Of a DNA stretch of 64,000 bases, positions 1 to 27,124 are shown one piece after another. The DNA is taken from contig CAVVYR010000014.1 in the NCBI GenBank assembly GCA_963752475.1, positions 1 through 64,000 of the forward strand. The letters are read 5' to 3'. Source of the stretch: an uncultured Chloroflexia bacterium. Its GTDB lineage: Bacteria; Chloroflexota; Limnocylindria; Limnocylindrales; CSP1-4. A program made the translations under genes and the position numbers. The stretch's first letter is position 1. Each line of letters starts with the position of its first letter. The notes beneath the pieces were generated by a model. The model was not told the origin of the DNA and did no database searches. It saw only the letters and a list, made by a program, of their open reading frames with translations.

Positions 1-483
1 CGTTGGGGAACTGCTCCCACACGCCCAGCGAGAACAGGATGGCCGTGAGCCCCTCGTTGGGCCCTGTGCCGGTGAGGACGAAGTGCCAGCTCGCGTCGTC
101 CACCCCGTCGGTGTCTCATCGTCGATCTCGTGGTACCAGCCGGTCCACGTCGTGCCCTCGGGACCCTCGATGTCCACGGCCCCCCAGGCGACGCAGATGC
201 CGTCTGCGGAGCAGTCCTCGTTGTGGATCAGGTGCTGGGTCCCGTCCAGGCGGGGATCGCTGTAGGTGCTGTCCCAGGCGCCCGGGAGGTCGCGGATCGA
301 CTGCGTGAAACCCAACCCTGGCTGGGCGATGACGGCCATCCCCTCGAGCCGCAGATCTCCCCGGGTGAGGAGCTTCACCCATACGGGCGCATCCTCGAGG
401 TCCTGCCCTGCTGCCACGCCCCCGAGCCCGCCGAACAGCGCCAACATGACCGTCCCGACCAGCGACAGTCGCAGCGTACGCAT
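1..483 (-). CDS. Secreted protein, array paralog 1 (runs off window edge; probable frameshift near 105)
   Basis: Hand translation from ATG 483: MRTLRLSLVGTVMLALFGGLGGVAAGQD...YSDPRLDG...IEGPEGTTWTGW...LTGTGPNEGL. Signal peptide, purine-rich RBS, motifs shared with paralogs 2-4. Missing from the ORF track because there is no stop in the window. Confidence 0.75.
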   Translation of the reverse strand, partial: MRTLRLSLVGTVMLALFGGLGGVAAGQDLEDAPVWVKLLTRGDLRLEGMAVIAQPGLGFTQSIRDLPGAWDSTYSDPRLDGTQHLIHNEDCSADGICVAWGAVDIEGPEGTTWTGWYHEIDDETPTGWTTRAGTSSSPAQGPTRGSRPSCSRWACGSSSPT

Positions 484-934
484 GACATACCCCTCCCATG
501 CGCGGGCCGGGTCCGCCAGTGGCTCGGCGCGGTCCAGGCGGCCAGGGTGTGGGCCGTGCCTCATCGCCTCCCGCTGGCAACCATTGTCCGCCTGACGACA
601 AGGCCACTGGGCCTTCGAGGGTGGTGGATGCGCGTGCGGTGGTGGCGTTGTTTCGCGGCACCGTCGTGATGTCCGGGGGTGCCGCTCACGGTCACGCAGG
701 AGACATGCACCGTCGTGTCGGTGTCTATCCCTGTGTGCGATCTGGCTCGCGGCGCTGTTGTCAGCGTGCAGGAACCGCGATGATGTACCGACCGCAGACG
801 ACCAGTGGTCGATGGTGTCGGGGCAACGACGGCGTGGATCAGTCTGGCTTGCGGCGCTGAGCGCGGGGACTGGTCGGTCGCCGCGAACATCCTCCGCCTT
901 CTTCCGCGCCGCAGGCAGCCGAGACGGCGCGGAT
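484..934. repeat. Conserved intergenic array unit 1
   Basis: Aligns by eye with 2827-3280, 3800-4154 (ends only) and 4762-5203. Confidence 0.9.
502..574 (-). ncRNA. c-di-GMP-II-like riboswitch aptamer, copy 1
   Basis: GCGGG-AGGC-GAUGA-GGCACGGCCC-ACACCCUGG-CCGCC-U-GGACCGCGCC-GA-GCC-ACU-GGCGG-ACCCGG-CCCGC gives P1, P2, kink-turn GA/GA, P3 and a CCGCC/GGCGG pseudoknot; ends 18 nt before the ATG. Confidence 0.7.
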
Positions 935-945
935 GCTTCTATGTC

Positions 946-951
946 TGTCAA
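946..951 (-). promoter_or_regulatory. TTGACA -35 box at IS110 end (circle-junction promoter)
   Basis: Perfect TTGACA 11 nt from the core; circularisation gives TTGACA-16nt-GAGACT upstream of the ncRNA and transposase. Confidence 0.6.
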
Positions 952-1993
952 GCCGCTTGGGCGCAGTCCTCGAGGAGCCGGAAGAGCCGCCGTGCGACGA
1001 ACCGCTTGAGACAGCGCTTGATCTCCCGGTCGCTCCGGCCCTCCGCTCGGCGACGCGCGGCATAGGCCCGGGTCTCCGGATCGTGGGGTGAGTCCCGAGA
1101 GCACGATCGTGTGCAGCGCTCGGTTGAGCTGACGGTCGCCGGCGCGGTTGAGTCGATGGCGGACCGCGGCCCGACGAGGCGGGGATGGGCGCCACGCCCG
1201 CGAGCATCGCGAAGGCCGCCTCGGAACGGATGCGACCGGCATGGGACCAGGCGTTTAGGATGGCCGCCGCGGTGATGACCCCGACGCCGGGCTCGGCCAG
1301 GAGCTCGGGTCGCTCCTGCTGCACGATGACCTCGAGCGCCGCCTCCAGGTCGGCCGCTTCGGCCTCGCAGGCGAGGGCCCGCCGCGCCGTGGAGCGCAGG
1401 GCAGAGATCGTCGCGCGGTGTTCGACCGACTGTGCGTGACCGATGCGCAGCCGCGCACAACGGAGGACCAGCGCGTGGGTGCCCAGGTGGCGAAACCGGC
1501 CGCGGAGGGCCTCGGGTGCGTTGACCACGAGCGCCTGGAGCGCGGAGACCGCCCGCGTCCGCTCGACCACCGCAGCCTGGCGCGTCGCGAGCAGCACGCG
1601 CAGGGCCTCCGGCCGCCACGTCGCCGTGGCTGGGCGAGGTACTCGCGTAGAGCGCCTCGCGGGCAGCGCGGATCGCGTCGAGCTCGTCGCTCTTGGCGCC
1701 GTTGCGACGGGCGGGTCGCCTCGGGCGGTCGATCTCGACGACCCACTCGCCCTGCTCGAGCAGGTAGGTCGTGAGCCCGGCACCGAAACTGCCCGTGCCC
1801 TCGACCGCCCAGACCCGACGGTCAGGGGCACGTCGACGAGCGAAGGCCAGGACGCGCTTGGCGCCGAAGGCGTCCGAGGGACCGCCAGATGGGCCATGGC
1901 ACCACCGGTCGGGGTCACGACCGCGGCGGTGTGCGAGGCCTTGTGGGTGTCGACCCCGATGACGGCGTCGATCCGGTCTGCGAGCATGGTCAT
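948..1993 (-). CDS. IS110 DEDD transposase/recombinase (several frameshifts)
   Basis: MTMLADRIDAVIGVDTHK, WAVEGTGSFG, KSDELDA, PGVGVITAA, FAMLAGVAPIPASSG and CLKRFVARRLFRLL are spread over three frames; RBS GGAGG before ATG 1993. Confidence 0.88.
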
Positions 1994-2039
1994 GGTTGCC
2001 CTCCTGTGAGACGGTGTGGTGACCGTGGTCGGCGTCGGG

Positions 2040-2260
2040 CTGGGCCATGTCATCCGGGCTGGCAGGACTGTGATGGGTCACACCCCTGACGGGGTGGACA
2101 GGCTTCTGATCAGGCCAACGCCTCGGCGTCCCAGGCCGGCGTCGACAGCGAACGGGCAGACGGATCCGCGCAAGGGCATCCCGAAGCCATGCTGCGAGAG
2201 CCAATGGGGTTACGAGTCATGCCTGTCCACTGTCGCCGCCAGTCTGGGCCCCCGCGATGG
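2040..2260 (-). ncRNA. Putative IS110 bridge RNA (ends approximate)
   Basis: Non-coding IS end containing matches to the left target (2204-2213), right target (2164-2171), left donor (2102-2107) and right donor (2067-2073), in the expected order and orientation. Confidence 0.8.
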
Positions 2261-2285
2261 GGAGGACACCAGTCTCACAATGGGG

Positions 2286-2826
2286 TTACTCGGCGGGTGG
2301 CTCCCCGTCCGTCGTGCCTGGGATATCGCCTACGTAGATGACCCCATGGGTCTCGAGCTCGTTCGTGTCGTACAGGTCCTGCTTGACGTGGATGAGGTAC
2401 GCGAGTCCGTCGTATCCGCCCTCGCCCTCAAGGAACCCGAGGACCTTCCAGCCCATCGTGCGTTCGTAGCCACCACGCCACTCCCCGGACCAGCGGCCAT
2501 CGTCGTTCACCAGTTCCACCGGACCGGAGGTGATGGTGACGGAGCCGGGGAACTGTATTGGACTGACCCAGCATCGAGAGCGTGCCGTCCACGCGAGGGT
2601 CGGAGGCGTTGGCCAGGAACTTCCATCGCAGACCCTCGGTCCGCTGGACCCCGCGTTCGAGCGAGACGGTCGGTGCCTCGCCATGGTCGATCCACACGAT
2701 GCTGCCGGTGACGGCGTCGGCTCGGGCCAGAGTTCGAGTCTCGTCCTGCGCCACGACCGCGCTCACGAACCCACTGAGCAACGCCAAGGTGAAGACCGCG
2801 GTCAAAGACAGTCGCAAGGTACGCAT
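2286..2826 (-). CDS. Secreted protein, array paralog 2 (one frameshift near 2550)
   Basis: MRTLRLSLTAVFTLALLSG...ASDPRVDG joined to ...LVNDDGRWSGEW...LEGEGGYDGL...GVIYVGDIPG...PPAE*. Confidence 0.8.
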
Positions 2827-3280
2827 CTGCTCCCCCTCAAGCGCGGGCCGGGTTCGCCAGTGGCTCAGCGCGGTCCAGGCGGCCATAATCACGGGCCGCG
2901 CTTCATCGCCTCACGCTAGGGACCATTGTCCGCCTCGCGACAAGGCCACGGGGCGTTCGAGGGCGGTCGGAGGCGCTGTTTCGCGGCACCGTCTTTCCGT
3001 CGGTGTGGGTGCCGCTCACGCCGGCGCAAGGCACCGTCGCGTCTATCGCTGTGTGGATCTGGCTCGCGGCGCTGTCTCAGCGTGCAGGAACTGCCGGATC
3101 ACGCGAGGACACGACCGCAGACGACCAGTGGCTCGATGGTGTCGGAGTGGATGGCTGTATGGGTCGATCAGGCTCGCGGCACCGTAGGGCGGGGGGGTGG
3201 ACGCATCCTGGGCTGGTCGGCTGCCGCGAGCGTCCTCCGCCTTCTTCAGCGCCGCAGGCAGCCGAGGCGGCGCAGTGGGG
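2827..3280. repeat. Conserved intergenic array unit 2
   Basis: 2812-3185 is near-identical to 4747-5120. Confidence 0.92.
2843..2916 (-). ncRNA. c-di-GMP-II-like riboswitch aptamer, copy 2
   Basis: Same architecture; P3 AGCGCGG/CCGCGCU covaries relative to copy 1. Confidence 0.7.
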
Positions 3281-3799
3281 CTACTCGGCGGACGGTTCCA
3301 CCGGGTCAGGCAGGGGGGTCGCTCGCCTTCGAAGATCTTGGCCCTCGCATCCTTCAGACGTACATTGGAGGACGGCGACGAGTCCTTCGTAGGCTCCCTC
3401 ACCGAAGTAGGTGTCCCAGCCGACACCACGCCCGTCCACATACTGCATCGTCGTGGCACCTCCGGTCCACGCACCGTCGGGTCCCTCGAGCCGAATCGTG
3501 GTCTGCCCCATGATGCCCCGGTCGCCCCCTTCGCCCGCATAGGAGTTGAAGTTCATGATGCTGTGCTTCACCGCTGGGAGCCGGGGGTCACTCCACTCGT
3601 AGGTCTCGGTGATGAGCATGCCCCGTCCGTAGTTGACGTCACCCTCGCTCGTGAACTCCATCTGCGAGTCGTCCCAGACCGATCGATGACCGTGCCTGGG
3701 GTGACAGGGTTCTACGGCCTCGGACTGGGCCGCAGCACCAAGACTGCCGACCAACATCAGGCTGACCGCTCCAACCATGGCTAGTCGCAACGCACGCAT
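3281..3799 (-). CDS. Secreted protein, array paralog 3
   Basis: MRALRLAMVGAVSLMLVGSLGAAAQ...WSDPRLP...LEGPDGAWTG...FGEGAYEGL...LPDPVEPSAE*. Confidence 0.82.
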   Translation of the reverse strand: MRALRLAMVGAVSLMLVGSLGAAAQSEAVEPCHPRHGHRSVWDDSQMEFTSEGDVNYGRGMLITETYEWSDPRLPAVKHSIMNFNSYAGEGGDRGIMGQTTIRLEGPDGAWTGGATTMQYVDGRGVGWDTYFGEGAYEGLVAVLQCTSEGCEGQDLRRRATPLPDPVEPSAE

Positions 3800-4154
3800 G
3801 TATGACCCCCCTTCACTCACGCGGACCGGGTTCGCCAGTGGCTCGGCGCGGCCCAGGCGGCCAGTGCTGGGGCCGAGCGTCGTCGCCTCCCGCTATCGAC
3901 CATTCTCCTCCCCGCGTCTATCGGCCACCTTGACGTGCTCGACGACGCCGTTCGAGGTCTGCGTGAGCGCCGCGACTACGGGTTGAGAGACAGGGGCAGA
4001 ACCCGTCGTACAGGGGTCTGTCGGTGTATGGGGCTGGCTCGCGGCGCTGAGCGTGGGGCCTGCTCGGAGCGCGGATGCACCGCTGGCTGGTCGGTCGCCG
4101 CGAACGTCCTCCGCCTTCTTCAGCGCCGCAGGCAGCCGAGGCGGCGCGATGGGG
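3800..4154. repeat. Array unit 3 (conserved ends, different middle)
   Basis: Leader 3821-3905 and 3' element ~4030-4157 match the other units; ~3910-4025 does not. Confidence 0.85.
3821..3893 (-). ncRNA. c-di-GMP-II-like riboswitch aptamer, copy 3
   Basis: GCGGG-AGGC-GACGA...UGG-CCGCC-U...GA-GCC-ACU-GGCGA-ACCCGG-UCCGC. Confidence 0.65.
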
Positions 4155-4761
4155 CTACTCCTCGACGGGAGCCTCCGCCGCGACCTCCTCCGACGGCATC
4201 GCCCACGGCAGCTCGCCGAGCGGCGGGGGCGGGACGCCCTCGTAGACGAGCCCGTTGAAGTCGAGCTCGCCCCCGAGCGGTCCCACACCATGCAGCAGGA
4301 ACGTGAAGCCCTCGTAAGCTCCGTGGCCGGTGAAGGTCTTGAGCAGGGTCATGAGCGACTGACCTCCCGGCTGCTCCGGGTGATGGGTGCCCCAGACCCA
4401 GCCGGTCCAGGAGCCATCGGGACCCGTCGATCTCCTCGGTGTTCCAGAAGACGCAGGTGTCGTCCGTCTCTCCGAAGCAGTCGTCCCCGAACGTACCGCG
4501 CAGGCTACCGCTGACGCGAGGGTCGCTGGCCTCGAATCACAGCCGTATCCATGCCCCTGAACCAGGAATGGCCATCTCCCTCATCGCCCCAGTGGTCTGG
4601 CTGTCGTCCTGCCAGCAGTTCGTCTCGATCACGGACGCCACCCAGGCGAAGTCAGGACCGGTCCCGATCTCCTGCTCCGGCTGGGCTACGACGCTCGCAG
4701 CCGATGTGACAACCAAGGCTGCAATGGCCGTTGCCACCAGGGACATTCGCAAGGTACGCAT
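4155..4761 (-). CDS. Secreted protein, array paralog 4 (frameshifted)
   Basis: MRTLRMSLVATAIAALVV... / FEASDPRVSG...PDGSWTGW / FTGHGAYEGF...GLVYEGVPPP...PVEE* across frames. Confidence 0.75.
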
Positions 4762-5203
4762 CTGCTCCCCCTCATGCGCGGGCCGGGTTCGCCAGTGGCT
4801 CAGCGCGGTCCAGGCGGCCATGATCACGGGCCGCGCTTCATCGCCTCCCGCTAGGGACCATTGTCCGCCTCGCGACAAGGCCACGGGGCGTTCGAGGGCG
4901 GTCGGAGGCGCTGTTTCGCGGCACCGTCTTTCCGTCGGTGTGGGTGCCGCTCACGCCGGAGCAAGGCACCGTCGCGTCTATCGCTGTGTGGATCTGGCTC
5001 GCGGCGCTGTCTCAGCGTGCAGGAACTGCCGGGATCACGCCAGGACACGACCGCAGACGACCAGTGGTTCGATGGTGTCGGAGTGGTTGGCGGTATGGGT
5101 GATCATGCTCGCGGCACCGTCAGGCCGAGCGAGGGGCCTGGTCGTATCGTGGGCTGGTCGGTCGCCGCGACCATCCGCAGGCAGCAGAGGCGGCGGAACG
5201 GGG
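4762..5203. repeat. Conserved intergenic array unit 4
   Basis: Near-identical to unit 2; has a short deletion in the 3' element. Confidence 0.92.
4778..4851 (-). ncRNA. c-di-GMP-II-like riboswitch aptamer, copy 4
   Basis: Two substitutions relative to copy 2; intact P1 GCGGG/CCCGC. Confidence 0.7.
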
Positions 5204-5248
5204 TTACTCGGGCACCTCGACCGGGTCTGGGTACTCGGGCAGCACGCC
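5204..5248 (-). pseudogene. C-terminal remnant of a fifth array paralog
   Basis: Reads GVLPEYPDPVEVPE* followed by CCCC, matching the paralog 3 end LPDPVEPSAE*. Confidence 0.7.
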
Positions 5249-5250
5249 GG

Positions 5251-5580
5251 TCCGAGCAGCCGAGTTACTTCGAGGCCGACCTCGTGAAGATCAAGGGCCT
5301 GCTCCATGACTGGAAGATGTTGTGTAATAAGGCCACCCCAGAGGAGCGTCAGGACATCGTCGGGGCGTTCTTTGGCGAGGTCCGTGTGCGCGACAAGACC
5401 ATCGTGTCGGCCACGCTCGCTGACCCCGCATACGCGCCGCTCATCGCCAGTTCTGAGGCGCGGCGCCTGCGGCTGGTCACGCCAGCAGGCGACGAGGACG
5501 AACAGGTTGGGCTGGCGCCCCCGGACGGGCGCGGGGCGCTAACTGCCAAACCCGAGGAGAAGCTGGCGGCGTACCTGTAG
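5251..5580 (+). pseudogene. C-terminal fragment of a probable large serine recombinase
   Basis: LLHDWKMLCNKATPEERQDIVGAFFGEVRVRDKTI resembles recombinase C-termini; reads through a copy of the tRNA-Arg 3' end; no catalytic domain present. Confidence 0.55.
5509..5528. repeat. att-like 20-bp duplicate of the tRNA-Arg 3' end
   Basis: gggctggcgcccccggacgg is identical to 7937-7956. Confidence 0.85.
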
Positions 5581-5635
5581 GTCAACGGTATCTGGGCTGG
5601 GACTGCTGTTGATGGTTGGAGCCGTCGTGCTCGTG

Positions 5636-5758
5636 TCACCCCACCCGGCGACTCGATGAGTCTCTCGACTTGTCCCCCAGGTCACCCACGGCCGCCACGA
5701 GCTCGGTGAACGGTGCGCTGTCCCCTTCCTGGGCCATGACGACGAGCTGCCGATCCAC
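5636..5758 (-). pseudogene. Truncated ECF sigma factor N-terminus
   Basis: VDRQLVVMAQEGDSAPFTELVAA resembles the N-termini of both ECF sigmas in this window. Confidence 0.5.
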
Positions 5759-5900
5759 GGTTCGAGCCGGTCTCTCTGCGCGCCAGACACCTTGCGAGTC
5801 GCCCGAAACCCGAACTGGCCCAACGCCGACAACGAAGATGGAACCCGACTGCCTTGGAGCGGGCTCTATGGTTCGAGAGCGGCCAAGTGGGCCGCCGCTA

Positions 5901-6461
5901 GTGGAGACCCGATGCAGCGGACTCGTCGAACGGGCGATGGCGGGTGATCGGGACGCGTTCACGGAGCTGGGACGCGGCCAGATCGACCGGCTCTACGCCA
6001 TCGCACGGCTCATCCTCCGGGACGACGACCGGGCTCATGACGCCACCCAGGAGGCCCTCATCGGCGCCTGGCGTGACCTCGCGGGCCTGCGCGATCCCGA
6101 CAAGTTCGAGGCGTGGATCCGACGCCTGCTCGTCAACGCGTGCTATCGCGAAGCACGCAAGGAGAAGCGGCGCACGCGCGCGGAAAGCCAGGTTCGGCCC
6201 ATCGATACCGAGTCTGCCGACCCCGCACACGCGATCGCCGATCGTGACGAGCTCGCGCGCGTGTTCGTCACGCTCGAGCCCGACCAACGGGCGCTGATCG
6301 TTCTCCACTACTACCTGGGGCTGCCGATGCACGAGACCGCCCAGGCCCTGAGCCTGCCGGTCGGCACCGTCAAGTCCCGACTCAATCGCACCAAGATGCA
6401 GATGCGCGCCTCGCTCGAGGCGGACGCGCGGCTGCCATTGCAGGAAGGGGGTCCGGCATGA
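5901..6461 (+). CDS. ECF RNA polymerase sigma factor (start uncertain)
   Basis: AGDRDAFTEL, AHDATQEALIGAWRDL, FEAWIRRLLVN, LPVGTVKSRLNR. Confidence 0.92.
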   Translation: METRCSGLVERAMAGDRDAFTELGRGQIDRLYAIARLILRDDDRAHDATQEALIGAWRDLAGLRDPDKFEAWIRRLLVNACYREARKEKRRTRAESQVRPIDTESADPAHAIADRDELARVFVTLEPDQRALIVLHYYLGLPMHETAQALSLPVGTVKSRLNRTKMQMRASLEADARLPLQEGGPA

Positions 6462-7758
6462 GCGTCAACGACGCACCCGATGTCAACCTGGACCGTCTCC
6501 TGACCGACTGGCTCGAAGCGGACGCCGCCCCCCGGGCGCCCGAGAGCCTCGAGACTGCATTCGTCGAGGGTGTCGCGAGCACGCGACAGCGACCCGCATG
6601 GGCCACCACGGAAAGGTGGATCTCCATGGAAACCCGCGCCCAGCTCGGGGTCATGCCCCGCGTGCTCATCATCCTGCTCACTATCGCGCTCCTGGCCTCG
6701 GCGCCCTCGGCGGCTACGCCTCGGCAGCAACCTCGTCAAGGCCGAAGACGGTGGTGCGGACACTGTGCTCACCTACGCCTCGCCAGCCGGGCGTCATCTA
6801 CAGCATCCGACCGACGGGACCGGCGAGCCAGTCCGCCTGACGGGCGACGACGAGGTCGCCTTCACCTTCGCCTGGTCGCCCGACGGGACGCGCTTCGCCT
6901 ACGAGTCATGGCCCGACCCTAGGACGGCCCGGCCACGATCATGGTCCGGGACGCCGACGGCTCCGACCCCGTCGCGATCAGCGAGCCGTTCGAGGCGCCG
7001 ACCGGCGCGTCGCGCGGCCCTACCTGGCCTGGAGCCCCGATGGCTCGAGGGTCCTCTGCTGGGCCCCTGGGCTCGACGTCGTCGACGACGGACGGGGTGC
7101 GGCAACCCGGGCACGTTCTGCGGCCAGCGGATCTGGAGCGCGCCCAGCGACGGCAGCGAGCCGGCCCAGGTCATCGGTGATCCGGCACTCGATGCGCGCT
7201 CGCCACTGTGGACGCCGGATGGCGAGACCATCATCTTCGCCGGCTCGGAAGGCAACGGAGGTCGTCTACGGCATCTACCGCATGGACGCCGATGGCGCGA
7301 ACGTCGAGCGGATCGGCGACCTGGGCGGCAGCGAGTACGCCTTCGACCGACATGCCATCTCTCCCGATGGAACAACGTTGGCCGTGGTCCAGCGGCAACG
7401 GGCTGCACGACCTCTACCTCGTGGACCTCGCGACGGGTGAGGAGACGCTCATCGCCGGCTCGGATGGGGACGAGGTGGACCCGTACTGGTCCCCCGATGG
7501 CTCGATGATCGCCTTCACGGGCTTGGCGGCTTCAACGACCCAGCACAGGCGATGCTCTACGACGTGGCCTCGGGAGAGGTCATCTCGCTCGGCACCGAGC
7601 TCTACGTCAAGGGTTGGTCGCCGGACAGCCGCTCCATCGTCAGCGGTGAGAACGGAGTCGTGACCGTGGTGGATGTGACCGACCCGACGGCGCCGGTGGT
7701 GACCGAGGTCGAGGGCCTCACCGAAGCCTACGAGCCCGGCTACCAACCACTCCCCTGA
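6458..7758 (+). CDS. Putative anti-sigma factor with TM segment and TolB-like PD40 propeller (frameshifted)
   Basis: ATGA overlap with the sigma stop; hydrophobic segment; repeated WSPDG/WTPDG/ISPDG motifs across frames. Confidence 0.7.
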
Positions 7759-7940
7759 TACGTCCGTCCCATGGCCCTCCGAGCCCCGAGCTCGGAGGGC
7801 CACTTCATCATTGCCCGGTGGCTGGGGAGCGTTTCTGCGTTCGCTGCCCGATCGAGGCATACGGGCACAGCTGGCATGGTCGGGCGCCCATGCGGCGTCC
7901 CCTCATGCGCCCAGCAAACGATGGGCACGAACAGTCGGGC

Positions 7941-8016
7941 TGGCGCCCCCGGACGGATTCGAACCGCCGACGCGCACCTTAGGAGAGTGCCGCTCTATCC
8001 ACTGAGCTACGGGGGC
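7941..8016 (-). tRNA. tRNA-Arg(CCT)
   Basis: 76-nt cloverleaf GCCCCCGTAGCTCAGTGGATAGAGC...CTCCTAA...GGTTCGAATCC...GCCA. Confidence 0.97.
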
Positions 8017-23320: not shown

Positions 23321-26300
23321 CTACTCGGCTCCCGCTACGGCCTCGGGGGTGATGACGTAGGTCTGGGTCTGGAGCGGACTGTCCATGCCAACGGCCGCCC
23401 GCCCGTAGTCATAGGCCCCAAGCCAGACGCTGCCATCGGGAGCGGTGGCGAAGTCGTGGACCAGGAACCCCACCAGATACGAGGTCCAGGTCGTGCCGTC
23501 GTAGTGCGACACGCCGCAGCAGTCCTCTAGCTCGGCGGTGTTGGTGCTGCCGATGAGCCAGAGGCTGCCGTCGGCGGCGACTTCAAGCAATTCCGTGTAG
23601 ATGTAGTTCGGTTCGCCCCATGGCTGGACGCCATCGGCGGCCGTGAACGTCGTCCAGCCCGGGTCATCGAAACGTGCGACGGACGTGCGGCTGACCTTCA
23701 CCCACAGCACGCCGTCCGGACCGACCTCGAGGCGGCCCCGGCCCATGTGGGGGGGTGCCCATCCCCATCCCTCGGGACCCGGGATGGCTGCCCATCCCTC
23801 GCCATCGAAGCGCAAGAGCGGTTCGCCCCCGTGGGTGGCTTGTGCGTGCCGACGAGCCATACGTCACCGTCGGGCGTCACCGCCAGTTCGAGCCTGTGCG
23901 CGTCGCCACCGTAGACGTCGGACCAGTCGAAGGTCGTGAGGGAACCATCGTCTTCGAGCCGGAGGAGGGCGGTGCCGGAATTCACCCAGACCGTGCCGTC
24001 GGGTCCGACGGCCAACGCGTGGGGGTCGCCGGTCGTGGTCGCTCGGAGCGTCCATCCCTCGCCATCGAACGAGAAGATGCCGCTGCTCTCATCGACGTCG
24101 CTGCGGTCGTCCGGGACACCGCCGATGCCGATGGCCCAGAGGGAGCCATCGGGTGCGACCACACGGTGGCGAAGATGGGTCCAGGGGTCCTCGAACACCG
24201 GTTCCTCGCCGAGGCGGAACAAGCCGTGGTCGCCCTCATCGACCGACACCCAGACGCTGCCGTCCGGGGTGACGTCCACCAGGAAGCCGGTGACGCCCCA
24301 GCCACCCAGCGGATACGTGAGATCCCGTACACCGTCGTCGACGACCCGGTAGACGCCCGGCTCGACCTCCTCGGTGACCATGCCCGAGAGCAACTCCTCG
24401 GTCGTGGTGGCGGTCTCGATGGTGTCGGTTGTCACCTCGACCGGAGGAGGTTCGGTGACCTCGGCCTCCCTGGCCGCCACGGCCTCGGGGGTGATGACGT
24501 AGAGGCGGAGCGGACCGGCTCCCGTCAGTCGGCCCCCAGCCAGACGCTGCCATCGGGGGCGATGGCGAAGTCGTCGATGCAGGACCCACCAGATACGAGG
24601 TCCATGTCGTGCCGTCGAAGTGCGCCACGCCGCCGCAGCCCTCGTCGGTCGGGCCGCCGTTGAGCCAGAGGCTGCCGTCGGCGGCGACGTTCGAGCAGGT
24701 CCGATGGCGGCTGACAGCCACTGCGTCGCCCCACGGCTCGACGCCATCGGCCTCCGTGAACATGGTCCAGCCCGGGTCATCGAAGCGGGCGAGGCCGCCC
24801 GCAGCGTGGGCCTTCACCCACAGCGTGCCGTCCGGACCGACGTCGAGGTGACCGGCCCACATCGCGGGGTCCCATCCCTCGGGACCCGGGATGGCTTCCC
24901 ATCCCTCGCCATCGAAGCGCAACAGCAGCTCGGCCCCTCGGGATCCCAGCGCGGCGTGCCGACGAGCCACACGTCGCCGTCGGGTGACACCGCCAGTTGG
25001 TACCAAGCCGCGTCGCCATCGTAGACATCGGCCCAGTCCTCGATGGTCGTGAGGGAGCCGTCGTCTTCGAGCCGCATGAGGACGGTGCCGGGGCAGTCGC
25101 CACCCTCGATGTCGGGGCAGTACTTGTCCTCGTCCTCCACCACCACCCAGACCGTGCCGTCGGGTCCGACGGCCAACGCGGTCGAAGCCGTCGGTCGTGG
25201 TCGCCCGCTCCGTCCATCCCTCGCCATCGAACGAGAAGATGCCGTACGGTCGTCCGGGACATCGCCGATGGCCCAGAGCGAGCCGTCGGGAGCGACCTCT
25301 CGGAGGGAGGCAGTCCTCGAGGTCCTCGAACACCGGTTCCTCGCCGAGGCGGTACAGGCCCTGCCTGCCGGATCGGGCCGACAGCCAGACGCTGCCGTCC
25401 GGGGTGACGTCCACCGATGAAGCCGGGAAGCCCCAGCCACCTAGCGGTACGAGAGGTCCCGCACGCCGTCGTTGACGACCCGGAACACGCCCGGCTCGAC
25501 CTCCTCGGTGACCATGCCCGAGAGCAACTCCTCGGTCGTGGTCGTCGGCCTCCTCGGTGTCGGTCACCTCCTCGACCGAAGGTGGCTCGGTGACCTCGGC
25601 CTCTCTGGCTCTCGCGGCCTCGGGGGTGATGACGTAGAGGCCGTGGCCATCCTCATTCGACACTAGCCACGCCGTGCCATCGGGCGCGACATCGAGTGAA
25701 TCGCTTCCGATAGGCCGCTCGTAGCGTGTCCACACGTCCCCGTCGAACGACGCGACGCCATCGGGGGTGATGGCCCAGACGCTGTCAGGGCCGACAGAGA
25801 ACTGCTCCGCCGCCTTCGTTCGTTCTGTCCACTCGGTGCCATCGAACGACAGCAGAGCCCCCATGCCATCCAGCACCCAGACGGAGCCGTCGGGATCGAC
25901 CTCCCAGTTCGGCGTGTTGTCCGAACCGGAGACCCTGGGCACGCCGTCGCCACGCGAGTACACCATCCACGTGTCGCCGTCGAAGCGGGCGAGGTAGTGC
26001 TGCTGCGCCTTGGCGCGGTCCGTGGCGAGCCCTCTCACGAGCCACGGCTCCACCCTGTCGTGCGACCACGTCACGTCCGACAGGAGTGCCCAGAGCGTTC
26101 CGTCCGGAGCGACCCTGAGGCCGATGACCTTCGTGTCGGCGCCGGAGCCAAGTGGCTGGATATCCCGCCATGCGCTGCCGTCGAAGCCGACGAGCCTTCC
26201 TGACCCGACTGCGAAGACCCTGCCGTCAGGTGAGGTCGAGAACTGGTAGACCTCGATAGGGACACCATCGCCGGTGTCGAACCACTGCCAGCCGTCGGGG

Positions 26301-27124
26301 CCGAGTCTCCCGATGCGGTCCGGCCATGCCGCCCAGACCGTCCCGTCGGGCAGGACCGAGACGGTGTTCGCCCAGATGTCCTCGCCGTGGGGAGTCCAAG
26401 CCTCGCCGTCGAACGAGGCGAGACCCCATCCACCAGCGGCCCACAGCGTGCCATCCGGCGCCGTGGCGAATGTGAGGTCGCTGGGCATCCGGTTCGGGTA
26501 CTCGTGGCCGGGGAATCCATCGCGTTGGTTGTGCCTTCCCTCGACTCCTACCTCCCACGCGACCGCATCGTCATCGTCTTTGCCCCAGTCATCGCCGTAG
26601 ACCGTCGTCATCACCCAGACAGACCCATCCGGCTCGATATGGAGTCGGTCGAGGCTCCTCGGCATGACGTGTTCGCCCTCGATCGCGCCTGGGACGTGTC
26701 CGGCTCCATCGTCGACGACCCGTAGCACCCCCGGTTCGACCACCTCGGTGATCATGCGCGAGAGCAGCTCCTCGGTATTCACCGGCGAGGGTGACTCGGT
26801 CGCCACCGCCGGGGTCATCTCGTCATTTGGCTGGGTGGAGAGGATGCCGATGAGCAGGAAGCCGCCGAACAGCGCCACGATGACGCCTGCTGCCACGAAC
26901 TTGAGCGCGGAGAACATCGTGAACCCCCTTGCGGGCTTAGGCCCGTCGGTAGCCGGGATGGGGGCACGATGACTGAGCGTCGGCAGCGGCCACCAACGTC
27001 CCTGCTGGCGTGTGCGTGGCACGTCCGCCATCACGCTGGTGACGCCCGTCTGCACACTCGGTCGTGGGACCTCGCGCTCCCGAAGCCAGACCTCAAGGAG
27101 GGGCTGCATCTGCTCGTCGTTCAT
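23321..27124 (-). CDS. Large putative anti-sigma/sensor with TM and three beta-propeller-like modules (frameshifted)
   Basis: ATGA overlap with the sigma; TM segment; repeated PDGxxW and FDGxxW motifs; three modules from EELLS.M.TE.VEPGV to YVITPEA. Confidence 0.72.

What the first reader, a model, noticed from the sequence alone, without database searches (positions are those of the whole stretch)
927..2289. IS110 whose bridge-RNA guides can be read directly and target the array's conserved gene end
Seen (minus strand): the empty target is GTAACCCC-AT-CCGCGC and the donor junction is TAGAAGC-AT-TGTGA. The IS non-coding end contains GTAACCCCAT (2213-2204, 10/10 match to left target plus core), then GCGCGGAT (2171-2164, exact reverse complement of core plus right target), then AGAAGC (2107-2102, left donor), a CACCCC/GGGGTG hairpin, and TCACAGT (2073-2067, complement of the right donor with one G-T wobble). 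Established: this is the guide order of IS621-type bridge RNAs, and IS110 elements often target repeats (REP, attC). Inference: a natural bridge recombinase with an AT core programmed to the array's stop-codon motif. It inserts without disrupting the gene and could recombine array units.
Basis: partly seen in the sequence, partly recalled or inferred. Interest (0 to 1): 0.78.

Follow-up and report, generated by a model that had tools for sequence, protein, structure and literature searches.

The report
IS110 element with readable bridge RNA
This is an ordinary member of the IS110 family of jumping genes, whose own small guide RNA spells out the gene-end motif where it sits; its enzyme gene looks broken in this assembly.

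Summary
All four guide strings, both junctions and the hairpin are at the stated coordinates. The 11-mer GTAACCCCATT occurs only twice in 64 kb: at the left junction and in the first RNA loop.

The element (window 935-2278, minus strand) belongs to the IS110 group, and its long left end encodes an IS621-type bridge RNA.
- In 48 relatives the stems covary: 22 of 42 pairs have compensatory changes.
- The loop guides track each element's own flanks: 0 of 20000 permutations reach the observed match, on either side.

Three corrections apply.
- The recombinase gene carries five frame-breaking indels that Illumina-type contigs of near-identical copies lack.
- Nothing supports recombination between array units.

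This is a new member of a known kind. One side observation is worth a look: left and right core dinucleotides differ in 36 of 36 relatives.

The parts
2281..2289 (-). Left target GTAACCCCA. It includes the TAA stop codon (2288-2286) of the upstream array gene.
   Evidence: It matches the loop string 2213-2205 exactly. The same motif ends paralogous genes.
2279..2280 (-). Left-junction dinucleotide TT in the family register.
   Evidence: In relatives the two bases before GTGAG are CT in 42 of 44 loci; the other 2 of 44, TT, are this element's two versions. LTG ends UU directly before the GGC stem.
935..2278 (-). Body of the IS110-group element, 1344 bp, GTGAGACT...CATAGAAGC.
   Evidence: The ends are homologous to those of 44 relatives. 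A second version lies at G000:C31 391-1757.
2250..2262 (-). 5' stem-loop CCCC AUCGC GGGG upstream of the target-binding loop.
   Evidence: Centroid fold. Relatives have a stem-loop at the same place (alignment). Covariation was not counted.
2141..2236 (-). Target-binding loop module. Outer stem 2236-2216 with 2161-2141; inner stem 2202-2200 with 2177-2175.
   Evidence: Consensus structure of 48 sequences. Helix 2 has 14 of 20 pairs with changes on both sides. Coordinates.
2203..2213 (-). Left target guide GUAACCCCAUU, on the 5' strand of the internal loop 2215-2203.
   Evidence: 11 of 11 identical to the left junction. Unpaired in the consensus structure.
2162..2171 (-). Right target guide GCGCGGAU (2171-2164) plus two bases CC (2163-2162) at the handshake position, on the 3' strand of the internal loop 2174-2162.
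   Evidence: Reverse complement of AT+CCGCGC at the right junction, 8 of 8. The position is homologous to ..NNNNGAC in relatives, which covaries with GTC NNNN flanks.
2060..2117 (-). Donor-binding loop module. Outer stem 2117-2109 with 2068-2060; inner stem 2099-2091 with 2086-2077.
   Evidence: Helix 5 has 6 of 9 pairs with changes on both sides.
2100..2107 (-). Left donor guide AGAAGC (2107-2102) plus CU (2101-2100).
   Evidence: Same sense as the right end ..AGAAGC. The second core base U matches T; the first does not.
2066..2073 (-). Right donor guide UCACAG (2073-2068) plus handshake bases UC (2067-2066).
   Evidence: It pairs with TT+GTGA of the left junction through one G-T wobble. It is identical in nearly all relatives, where it pairs with GA-CT-GTGA.
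948..1993 (-). Recombinase gene: ATG 1993-1991, TGA 950-948. Broken by indels near 1877, 1648, 1609, 1166-1167 and 1085.
   Evidence: Contigs of public runs lack these indels. Pieces of the C31 version hit PF01548 at 52 bits and PF02371 at 67 bits.
946..951 (-). TTGACA, 11 bases from the right end. Candidate -35 box of a promoter formed only on the circle junction.
   Evidence: CTTGAC lies 11-12 bases from the end in the 29 right ends listed that show it, whatever the reading frame. This is inference from Durrant 2024. No promoter was found in the linear element.
933..934 (-). Right-junction dinucleotide AT.
   Evidence: It is complementary to the last two bases of the right target guide.
927..932 (-). 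Right target CCGCGC. It forms the 5' arm of an inverted repeat (933-924 with 912-903).
   Evidence: The hairpin is not stronger than shuffles (z -0.72).
3267..3286 (-). Unoccupied paralogous gene-end motif GAGTAGCCCCACTGCGCCGC.
4141..4160 (-). Unoccupied paralogous gene-end motif GAGTAGCCCCATCGCGCCGC.
5190..5209 (-). Unoccupied paralogous gene-end motif GAGTAACCCCGTTCCGCCGC.

Best explanation
Window 935-2278 (minus strand) is an IS110-group insertion sequence. It has a 285-base left end, a DEDD/serine recombinase gene and a 13-base right end.

The left end encodes an IS621-type bridge RNA with two internal loops.
- The first loop carries a left target guide (GUAACCCCAUU) that reads like the DNA left of the element. 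It also carries a right target guide (GCGCGGAU) that is complementary to the DNA right of it.
- The second loop carries guides for the element's own two ends (AGAAGC and UCACAG).

By the mechanism established for IS621, the excised circle and a target would be held together by this RNA and recombined at a two-base core whose second base is T. This step is inferred here, not shown.

The programmed target is the stop-codon end (GAG TAA CCCC A..) of a family of small genes present in several arrays. The element therefore sits 3' of the coding sequence.

In this assembly the recombinase frame is broken five times. This copy is either a fossil or a badly assembled repeat at a contig end; near-identical copies without those indels exist in public metagenome contigs.

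By family homology the junctions read CCCCA-TT-GTGAG and GAAGC-AT-CCGCGC.
For: Family membership:
- The window pieces hit PF02371 at 33.6 bits (cut-off 21.3), and PF01548 at only 19.2 and 18.4 bits, below its cut-off of 29.
- The C31 version hits PF01548 at 52.1 bits and PF02371 at 67.4 bits.
- Its two pieces hit NF033542 'IS110 family RNA-guided transposase' at 64.3 and 82.2 bits. The intact relative L010 scores 149.6 against a cut-off of 140.
- The C-terminal piece aligns with IS621 chain 8wt6 residues 133-313, with SSG over ESG.

Own guides:
- LTG matches 11 of 11 and RTG 8 of 8.
- The 11-mer occurs only at the junction and in the loop.

Structure, from 48 sequences:
- 42 pairs, 95.8% of cells paired, against 88.3 +/- 0.4 in shuffles (0 of 500) and 30-48% when slid.
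- 22 pairs have changes on both sides, against 12.5 in shuffles.
- All four guides fall in the unpaired strands of the two internal loops.

Guide-flank covariation in relatives:
- LTG matches the left flank in 7 to 11 of 11 positions in 44 loci, and in 10 or 11 positions in 25 of them.
- Over the 7 variable positions of 29 distinct guides the mean is 5.31, against 2.34 when flanks are permuted; 0 of 20000 permutations reach it.
- Over 5 variable RTG positions of 23 distinct guides the mean is 3.09 against 1.76, again 0 of 20000.

Target family: 9 unoccupied motifs lie in the genome, one of them the exact string GAGTAACCCCATCCGCGC.

A contig of run X1 covers 2010-2294 with no difference, so this loop and this junction are not an artefact of the assembly.

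The rules used for guide sense, core and loop order are those stated in Durrant 2024 and Hiraizumi 2024 (passages read).
Against: - The recombinase ORF in the window is broken. The only other version in this genome has one frameshift.
- Only one locus is occupied in the 4.2 Mb genome, so nothing shows recent movement here.
- There is no Rfam match.
- The single-sequence fold is only marginally better than shuffles (z -1.98; 7 of 200 fold as well) and pairs part of the left guide.
- The left donor guide match is only 6 bases plus the second core base.
- The first core base of the left donor guide mismatches the right junction.
- The C31 version's target guides mismatch its own flanks at 2 of 11 and 1 of 8 positions.
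- No call shows the RNA, the circle or recombination. A contig from an RNA library (X15, 2090-2271, no difference) cannot exclude DNA carry-over.
Confidence: 0.9

Rival explanations
1. The core is AT on both sides, the element starts at TGTGAG (one T longer than in its relatives), the donor junction is ..TAGAAGC-AT-TGTGA.., and the pre-insertion site was GTAACCCC-AT-CCGCGC.
For: - The string GAGTAACCCCATCCGCGC exists unoccupied at G000:C31:19730-19747.
- On that string the two target guides overlap by exactly AT, which is how the core is defined in Durrant 2024.
- AT then stands at both junctions with no mismatch.
Against: - In 44 of 44 relatives and versions the left end aligns as xT+GT(G/A)A.. 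In the closest relatives, L037 and L038, the end is GTGAGACT preceded by CT.
- The donor-binding loop is almost identical across the family, so the donor should have two bases between ..AAGC and GTGA.
- The same register applied to L037 and L038 gives AC or TC at the left against AT at the right, with no T at the second core position. This conflicts with Hiraizumi 2024.
- The left guide of the C31 version ends CU before the stem, which makes sense only in the family register.
- Other unoccupied sites in run X1 have two bases between CCCCA and CCGCGCC (table 5c).
Confidence: 0.3
2. The copy in the window is a dead relic. The recombinase gene is truly broken, the guides are fossils of the insertion event, and the RNA, if made, can act only with a recombinase supplied by another copy.
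For: - Five indels relative to the C31 version and to public contigs, none in a long homopolymer.
- Only one occupied locus in the genome.
- A perfect-looking target remains empty.
Against: - The element lies within 2.3 kb of a contig end, in a repeat.
- C14 and C31 overlap there with 99-100% identical outer flanks but 82-95% identity inside the element. This suggests a mixed consensus.
- The window also differs by an indel outside the element (738), and both versions have frameshifts in the flanking genes.
- The RNA scaffold differs at only 2 of 259 positions between versions, against 10.2% in the coding part. Free decay would not predict this.
Confidence: 0.4
3. The guide-like strings are chance matches in a GC-rich sequence, and the left end has no RNA role.
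For: The 8-mer ATCCGCGC and the 6-mer AGAAGC are common or short. The single-sequence fold is not clearly better than shuffles.
Against: - The 11-mer is unique to the junction and the loop.
- Guide-flank covariation reaches 0 of 20000 permutations on both sides.
- There are 22 covarying pairs.
Confidence: 0.01

Closest known systems
IS621 of Escherichia coli and its bridge RNA (Durrant et al. 2024, PMC11208160; Hiraizumi et al. 2024, PMC11208158; passages read)
   Same: - The recombinase has PF01548 plus PF02371.
- The left end is long and the right end short.
- The RNA lies in the left end with a 5' stem-loop, a target-binding loop and a donor-binding loop, in that order.
- The 5' strand of each loop has the sense of the top strand; the 3' strand is complementary.
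- T is the second core base.
- Two bases 3' of the right donor guide (UC) pair with the two bases before the core in the target (GA in 36 of 44 loci), as described for handshake guides.
   Different: - Protein similarity is low: E 1.6e-6 over the C-terminal part, and no hit for the N-terminal part.
- The left target guide is longer, 10-11 bases.
- The two junction dinucleotides differ from each other (TT/AT here, CT/GT in most relatives), whereas IS621 has CT at both ends.
- The host is a high-GC actinobacterial lineage.
This element's own clade: about 50 elements in Actinomycetota genomes and metagenomes (loci L004-L093, 52-70% protein identity)
   Same: - Same scaffold and the same donor guides (CAGGAGC or CAGAAGC, and UCACAG).
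- Same ends (GTGAG.. and ..CATAG(G/A)AGC).
- CTTGAC near the right end.
- Nine of 36 distinct loci, this one included, sit just after the stop codon of a co-oriented ORF with coding signature.
   Different: - The target guides differ.
- Only this element has TT as the left dinucleotide.
- The AGAAGC/AT right end is shared only with L037, L038 and L026.
REP- or repeat-targeting IS110 elements such as ISPpu9 and ISPpu10 of Pseudomonas putida (search listing and abstracts only)
   Same: They insert sequence-specifically into a short conserved motif that is repeated in the genome, next to an inverted repeat.
   Different: Here the motif is the conserved 3' end of a protein-coding gene family rather than an extragenic palindrome. 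The hairpin is not stronger than chance.
IS1111 group (described in Durrant 2024)
   Same: Same recombinase family and RNA-guided logic.
   Different: IS1111 elements carry the RNA in a long right end. This element has a 13-base right end and the RNA in the left end, so it belongs to the IS110 group.

Membership tests
IS110 family insertion sequence (IS110 group) | [quoted passage not shown] | tested here: met
   - The window's broken frames hit PF02371 at 33.6 bits (cut-off 21.3), and PF01548 at only 19.2 and 18.4 bits (cut-off 29).
- The C31 version hits at 52.1 and 67.4 bits.
- NF033542 covers profile positions 1-127 and 132-339.
IS110 family insertion sequence (IS110 group) | Conserved catalytic serine in the C-terminal domain. 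| tested here: met
   In the C31 version, SSG aligns with ESG of IS621 chain 8wt6. My reading that this is the S241 named assumes a two-residue tag offset. In the window copy a 2-base deletion follows directly after this motif.
IS110 family insertion sequence (IS110 group) | The four DEDD catalytic residues are present. | not tested
   Only the domain hit was obtained. No residue-level alignment to a solved structure was possible, because the N-terminal piece had no PDB hit.
IS110 family insertion sequence (IS110 group) | The left non-coding end is much longer than the right one, and there are no terminal inverted repeats. | tested here: met
   The left end is 285 bases (2278-1994) and the right end 13 bases (947-935). 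The ends GTGAGACT and CATAGAAGC are not inverted copies of each other.
IS110 family insertion sequence (IS110 group) | An intact, expressible recombinase gene. | tested here: not met
   There are five frame-breaking indels in the window copy and one in the C31 version. Public contigs lack the five, so this may be a fault of the assembly.
Bridge RNA of the IS621 type | Two internal loops, each closed by stems on both sides, in the order target loop then donor loop. | tested here: met
   Consensus of 48 sequences: 42 pairs, 22 with compensatory changes, with controls far lower.
Bridge RNA of the IS621 type | The 5' strand of the first loop equals the left target plus core; the 3' strand is the reverse complement of core plus right target. 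| tested here: met
   The own element matches 11 of 11 and 8 of 8. In relatives covariation reaches 0 of 20000 permutations on each side.
Bridge RNA of the IS621 type | The second loop matches the element's own right and left ends. | tested here: met
   AGAAGC equals the right end, and UCACAG pairs with TT-GTGA of the left junction through one wobble. The same pairing holds in relatives (AGGAGC and CT-GTGA). These strings hardly vary, so there is little covariation to count.
Bridge RNA of the IS621 type | The same core dinucleotide, with T second, stands at both junctions. | tested here: inconclusive
T is second at both junctions in the family register. The first base differs between left and right in 36 of 36 loci.
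Bridge RNA of the IS621 type | The RNA is transcribed, binds the recombinase and directs recombination. | not testable with these tools
   Only contigs of one RNA library cover 916-2271. They cannot show transcription.
Rfam RNA family | A match to a curated covariance model. | tested here: not met
   Only two chance-level hits (E 1.7 and 1.9) to unrelated sRNAs.

The most novel reading that the evidence does not exclude
In this actinobacterial clade the left and right core dinucleotides always differ.
- The left one (CT, or TT here) follows the left target guide, so it comes from the target.
- The right one (GT or AT) is complementary to the last bases of the right target guide. It changes together with that guide (A with U in 4 loci, G with C in 32).

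This would mean that the right core travels with the element, and that only the top strand is transferred. The first core base would then act as an extra handshake position that pairs only after strand exchange. If so, the clade is a natural sequence footprint of the top-strand copy-out-paste-in model proposed in two recent preprints on IS110 elements.
Probability: 0.4. Interest if true: 0.55.

Novelty: new member of a known kind. Interest (0 to 1): 0.33.

Why it matters
IS110 elements with bridge RNAs have been known since 2024. Bridge RNAs were predicted in 85.7% of catalogued IS110-group elements (Durrant 2024). A further member is therefore expected.

Its value is modest and practical.
- It anchors a set of about 45 related high-GC elements whose guides and flanks can be read side by side.
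- It shows a natural target that is the stop-codon end of a gene family, which leaves the coding sequence intact.
- Its clade has unequal left and right cores. This could help decide between double-strand and top-strand transfer models.
- The scaffold may be of use as an orthogonal bridge system for actinobacteria.

Tried and rejected
- Rfam search of 600-2700 at E up to 10 gave nothing relevant.
- The single-sequence fold of 2040-2289 gave z -1.98, with 7 of 200 shuffles folding as well. It pairs part of the left guide with the right guide region, so it neither confirms nor refutes the loops. The alignment-based structure was used instead.
- The promoter and terminator scan of 850-2400 found 0 sites. 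A junction promoter cannot be scanned in the linear element.
- The hairpin after the stop codon is a 9-10 bp inverted repeat in the occupied unit. It is no better than shuffles in any of 5 units, so I do not claim a structural target.
- I looked for an orthologous empty site for relative L019 in 30 genomes of its genus. The flanking genes are found, but the intergenic stretch is too diverged to give the exact pre-insertion sequence. One genome reads CTCTGACTCAGC there, which is only suggestive.
- The first genome pattern was too strict and found nothing. A looser one found 9 sites.
- The N-terminal recombinase piece against PDB sequences gave no hit at E 0.01.
- Array proteins (window 3284-3820 and L002 2206-2751) have no Pfam family.
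- Depth in run X1 is about 40-60 over the element and 3-8 over the flanks. Contigs also diverge into at least three sequences beyond 2297 and 2303. This hints at several insertions in that community, but the tool warns that summed contig depth is no copy number, so I do not count it as evidence.
- The RNA-library contigs of X15 cover 916-2271 but cannot show transcription.
- A crude check of long high-GC3 ORFs shows normal genes from 8 kb onward and none in 1-8000. This does not decide whether the indels are errors.
- Supplementary files of the papers were not seen. Durrant's supplementary tables of orthologues may already list this clade.

Rows dropped:
- Of the 92 loci held (90 fetched plus the two versions of this genome), only the 53 with the anchor CTGATCAG(G/A)AGC were examined.
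- Five of those, with under 150 bases upstream, were left out.
- Of the 51 references listed, 48 went. L042, L082 and L084 were dropped for a divergent, duplicated first loop.
- In one search the guide columns of those three loci were shifted by one column by hand.
- In one search the left end was picked by likeness to GTGAGGAT or GTGAGACT, not by the guide.
- The window and L002 were excluded from the permutations.
Full report
**What is there**

All positions are read on the minus strand.
- Left of the element the window reads ...GCC GAG TAA CCCC ATT GTGAGACT...
- Right of it the window reads ...TTGACAGACATAGAAGC AT CCGCGCCGTCTCGG...
The CACCCC/GGGGTG hairpin lies between the last two.

Between the ends lie three parts:
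- a 285-base non-coding left end;
- a recombinase gene, ATG 1993-1991 to TGA 950-948;
- a 13-base right end.

**Is it more than chance?**

- GTAACCCCATT occurs exactly twice in the 64 kb on both strands: at the left junction and in the loop. With one mismatch a paralogous gene end is added. 0.15 matches are expected, and 0 of 100 shuffles reach 3.
- The right guide's 8-mer is common, with 11 matches against 10.2 expected. The left donor guide is only a 6-mer. These two count only through their position and the comparison with relatives.

**Family**

- The window's broken frames give PF02371 at 33.6 bits. They give PF01548 at 19.2 and 18.4 bits, below its cut-off of 29.
- A second version of the element lies at the start of contig C31 (L002 391-1757, 92% identical). 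It has one frameshift.
- The two pieces of that version score 52.1 bits on PF01548 and 67.4 bits on PF02371.
- They also score 64.3 and 82.2 bits on NF033542, 'IS110 family RNA-guided transposase'. An intact relative passes that cut-off, 149.6 against 140.
- The C-terminal piece aligns with IS621 chain 8wt6, with SSG over its ESG.
- A long left end and a short right end place the element in the IS110 group, where the bridge RNA lies in the left end (Durrant 2024, passages read).

**Relatives**

- Scans with the C-terminal piece gave 33 loci in genomes and 57 in metagenomes. All are Actinomycetota or unnamed, at 52-70% identity for most.
- Fifty-three loci, the two own versions included, carry the conserved donor-loop anchor.
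- Forty-eight of them had enough upstream sequence to align.

**Structure**

A consensus fold of 48 sequences gives 42 pairs in five helices.
- 95.8% of cells are paired, against 88.3 +/- 0.4 in shuffles (0 of 500) and 30-48% with the partner slid by 1-3 columns.
- 22 pairs have changes on both sides, against 12.5 in shuffles.

Mapped to the window:
- First module: the outer stem is 2236-2216 with 2161-2141. It encloses an internal loop whose 5' strand is UCGUAACCCCAUU (2215-2203) and whose 3' strand is CUUGCGCGGAUCC (2174-2162).
- Second module: the outer stem is 2117-2109 with 2068-2060. It encloses CAGAAGCCU (2108-2100) and CCAUCACA (2076-2069) around the inner hairpin.

All four guides therefore sit in unpaired loop strands.

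**Guide-target covariation**

- In 44 loci with a readable left junction, the 11 loop bases match the 11 bases left of GTGAG in 7 (3 loci), 8 (6), 9 (10), 10 (23) or 11 (2) positions.
- In 37 loci with a right junction, the reverse complement of the right guide matches the first 8 flank bases in 4 (2 loci), 5 (6), 6 (15), 7 (8) or 8 (6) positions.
- I then took only the variable positions and one locus per distinct guide, and left out this genome.
  - The left side gives a mean of 5.31 of 7, against 2.34 when flanks are permuted.
  - The right side gives 3.09 of 5, against 1.76.
  - In both cases 0 of 20000 permutations reach the observed value.
- The sense of each guide is the one stated for IS621: the 5' strands read like the top strand and the 3' strands are complementary.

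**The target**

- The motif GAGTA(A/G)CCCC.. follows the last codon of paralogous small genes at window 3286, 4160 and 5209.
- The genome holds 9 unoccupied sites on four contigs, against 1 hit for the reversed-pattern control.
- The proteins have no Pfam family.
- One site, C31:19730-19747, is GAGTAACCCCATCCGCGC.
- Contigs of other public runs also join across the element. They give variants such as CCCCA-CT-GCGCC, CCCCACCGCGC and CCCCAT-C-CCGCGC (tables 5 and 5c).

**Register of the core**

In all relatives the element begins GT(G/A)A.. and is preceded by xT. That is CT in 42 of 44 loci; the other two, TT, are this element's versions. The right end ..AG(G/A)AGC is followed by xT: GT in 32 loci, AT in 4 and TT in 1 of 37.

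The donor-binding loop is nearly invariant, so the donor should have two bases between ..AAGC and GTGA. By that register this element reads CCCCA-TT-GTGAG and GAAGC-AT-CCGCGC. The left guide then ends UU directly at the GGC stem, as CU does in relatives.

L037 and L038 both read CT-GTGAGACT.

A circle junction sequence would settle it.

**State of the recombinase gene**

Against the C31 version the window has indels near 1877, 1648, 1609, 1166-1167 and 1085. Contigs of runs X1, X4 and X15, as far as they cover these places, lack each of them (table 4). So either intact near-identical copies exist or the window is in error there.

Several observations favour an assembly problem:
- The element lies at the very end of contig C14.
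- C31 overlaps it with 99-100% identical outer flanks but 82-95% identity inside the element.
- An indel difference also lies outside the element, at 738.
- Both versions have frameshifts in the flanking genes.

On the other side, the indels are not in long homopolymers, and genes further along the window look intact. I cannot decide between the two.

**Divergence between the two versions**

- In the left end the two versions differ at 8 of 285 columns.
- Six of those lie in the 26 bases of the target-binding loop (hypergeometric p 8e-6).
- Two lie in the remaining 259 columns (0.8%).
- The coding part differs at 10.2% of columns.

A conserved scaffold with changed guides is what a working, re-targeting RNA would show. 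It could also come from mixing reads of different copies in the assembly.

The C31 version's guides (GUAAUCCCACU and GCGGGGAU) mismatch its own flanks at 2 and 1 positions.

**Mechanism**

Shown here: the anatomy, the covarying structure, and guide-flank matching in this element and its relatives.

Inferred from IS621:
- The element excises as a circle.
- The circle junction brings the conserved TTGACA (951-946) to a -10-like GAGACT in the left end. CTTGAC lies 11-12 bases from the right end in the relatives' right ends that show it (29 listed). This would drive the RNA.
- The RNA bridges the donor and a target ending in the stop-codon motif.
- The recombinase exchanges strands at xT.

**Side observation**

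- Left and right core dinucleotides differ in 36 of 36 loci that have both.
- The left one equals the left guide's last two bases in 40 of 44 loci. The right one is complementary to the right guide's last two bases in 36 of 37.
- The right donor guide's core part (AG) fits the left junction's CT.

This is what top-strand-only transfer predicts, with the left core coming from the target and the right core carried by the element. Two preprints propose that model:
- 10.1101/2025.10.25.684509 (two passages read);
- 10.64898/2026.08.31.748434 (abstract read).

I did not find this asymmetry described. I ran only one literature search and read passages of five papers, so I do not claim that it is not in print.

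**Verdict**

The element is a new member of a known kind, of modest interest.

Noticed in passing
Loci L004-L093 and window 933-934 / 2279-2280: The dinucleotide left of GTGAG and the one right of ..AGC differ in 36 of 36 loci: CT/GT 31, TT/AT 2, CT/AT 2, CT/TT 1. The right one covaries with the 3' end of the right target guide.
   Followed up: partly
Window 2162-2215 versus L002 462-515: Six of the 8 differences between the two versions of the left end fall in the 26-base target-binding loop. The scaffold differs at 0.8% and the coding part at 10.2%.
   Followed up: partly
Window 1-2700 and G000:C31 1-2700: The starts of contigs C14 and C31 overlap in opposite orientation. The outer flanks are 99-100% identical and the element inside is much more diverged, so this may be one locus assembled twice or a mixed consensus. 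There are indel differences in the flanking genes as well.
   Followed up: partly
Window 1-5300; G000:C8:585400-586700; C32:12500-13800; C31:2206-2766 and 19730: A family of small genes, many starting MRTLRLSL.. and ending ..AE*, with no Pfam family. They stand in short arrays on at least four contigs. Each is followed by the conserved CCCCATCGCGCCGCCTCGGCTGCC stretch.
   Followed up: partly
Left flanks of L005, L019, L024, L029, L031, L050, L064, L067 and the window: Nine of 36 distinct loci sit two to seven bases after the stop codon of a co-oriented ORF with strong coding signature, mostly ..TGA-CT. The GA before the core is what the conserved UC after the right donor guide would pair with.
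   Followed up: partly
Window 946-951 and the right ends of all relatives: CTTGAC is conserved 11-12 bases from the right end whatever the reading frame or the place of the stop codon. It is a likely -35 box of a circle-junction promoter.
   Followed up: no
L042:1670-1930, L082:120-380, L084:1-240: A subgroup has two similar copies of the left-guide segment (..GGCCC..TCGTCACCGGCC..) upstream of the donor loop, as if the first loop were duplicated. Its left flank matches them.
   Followed up: no
Window 23400-26800: There are many direct repeats of 43-127 bases at about 1.1 kb spacing. This looks like tandem paralogous genes or a repeat-rich gene, unrelated to the element.
   Followed up: no
Window 1-8000: No ORF of 100 codons or more with GC3 of at least 0.82 lies here. 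The rest of the window has them at 33-85% coverage. The array region is compositionally or qualitatively different.
   Followed up: no
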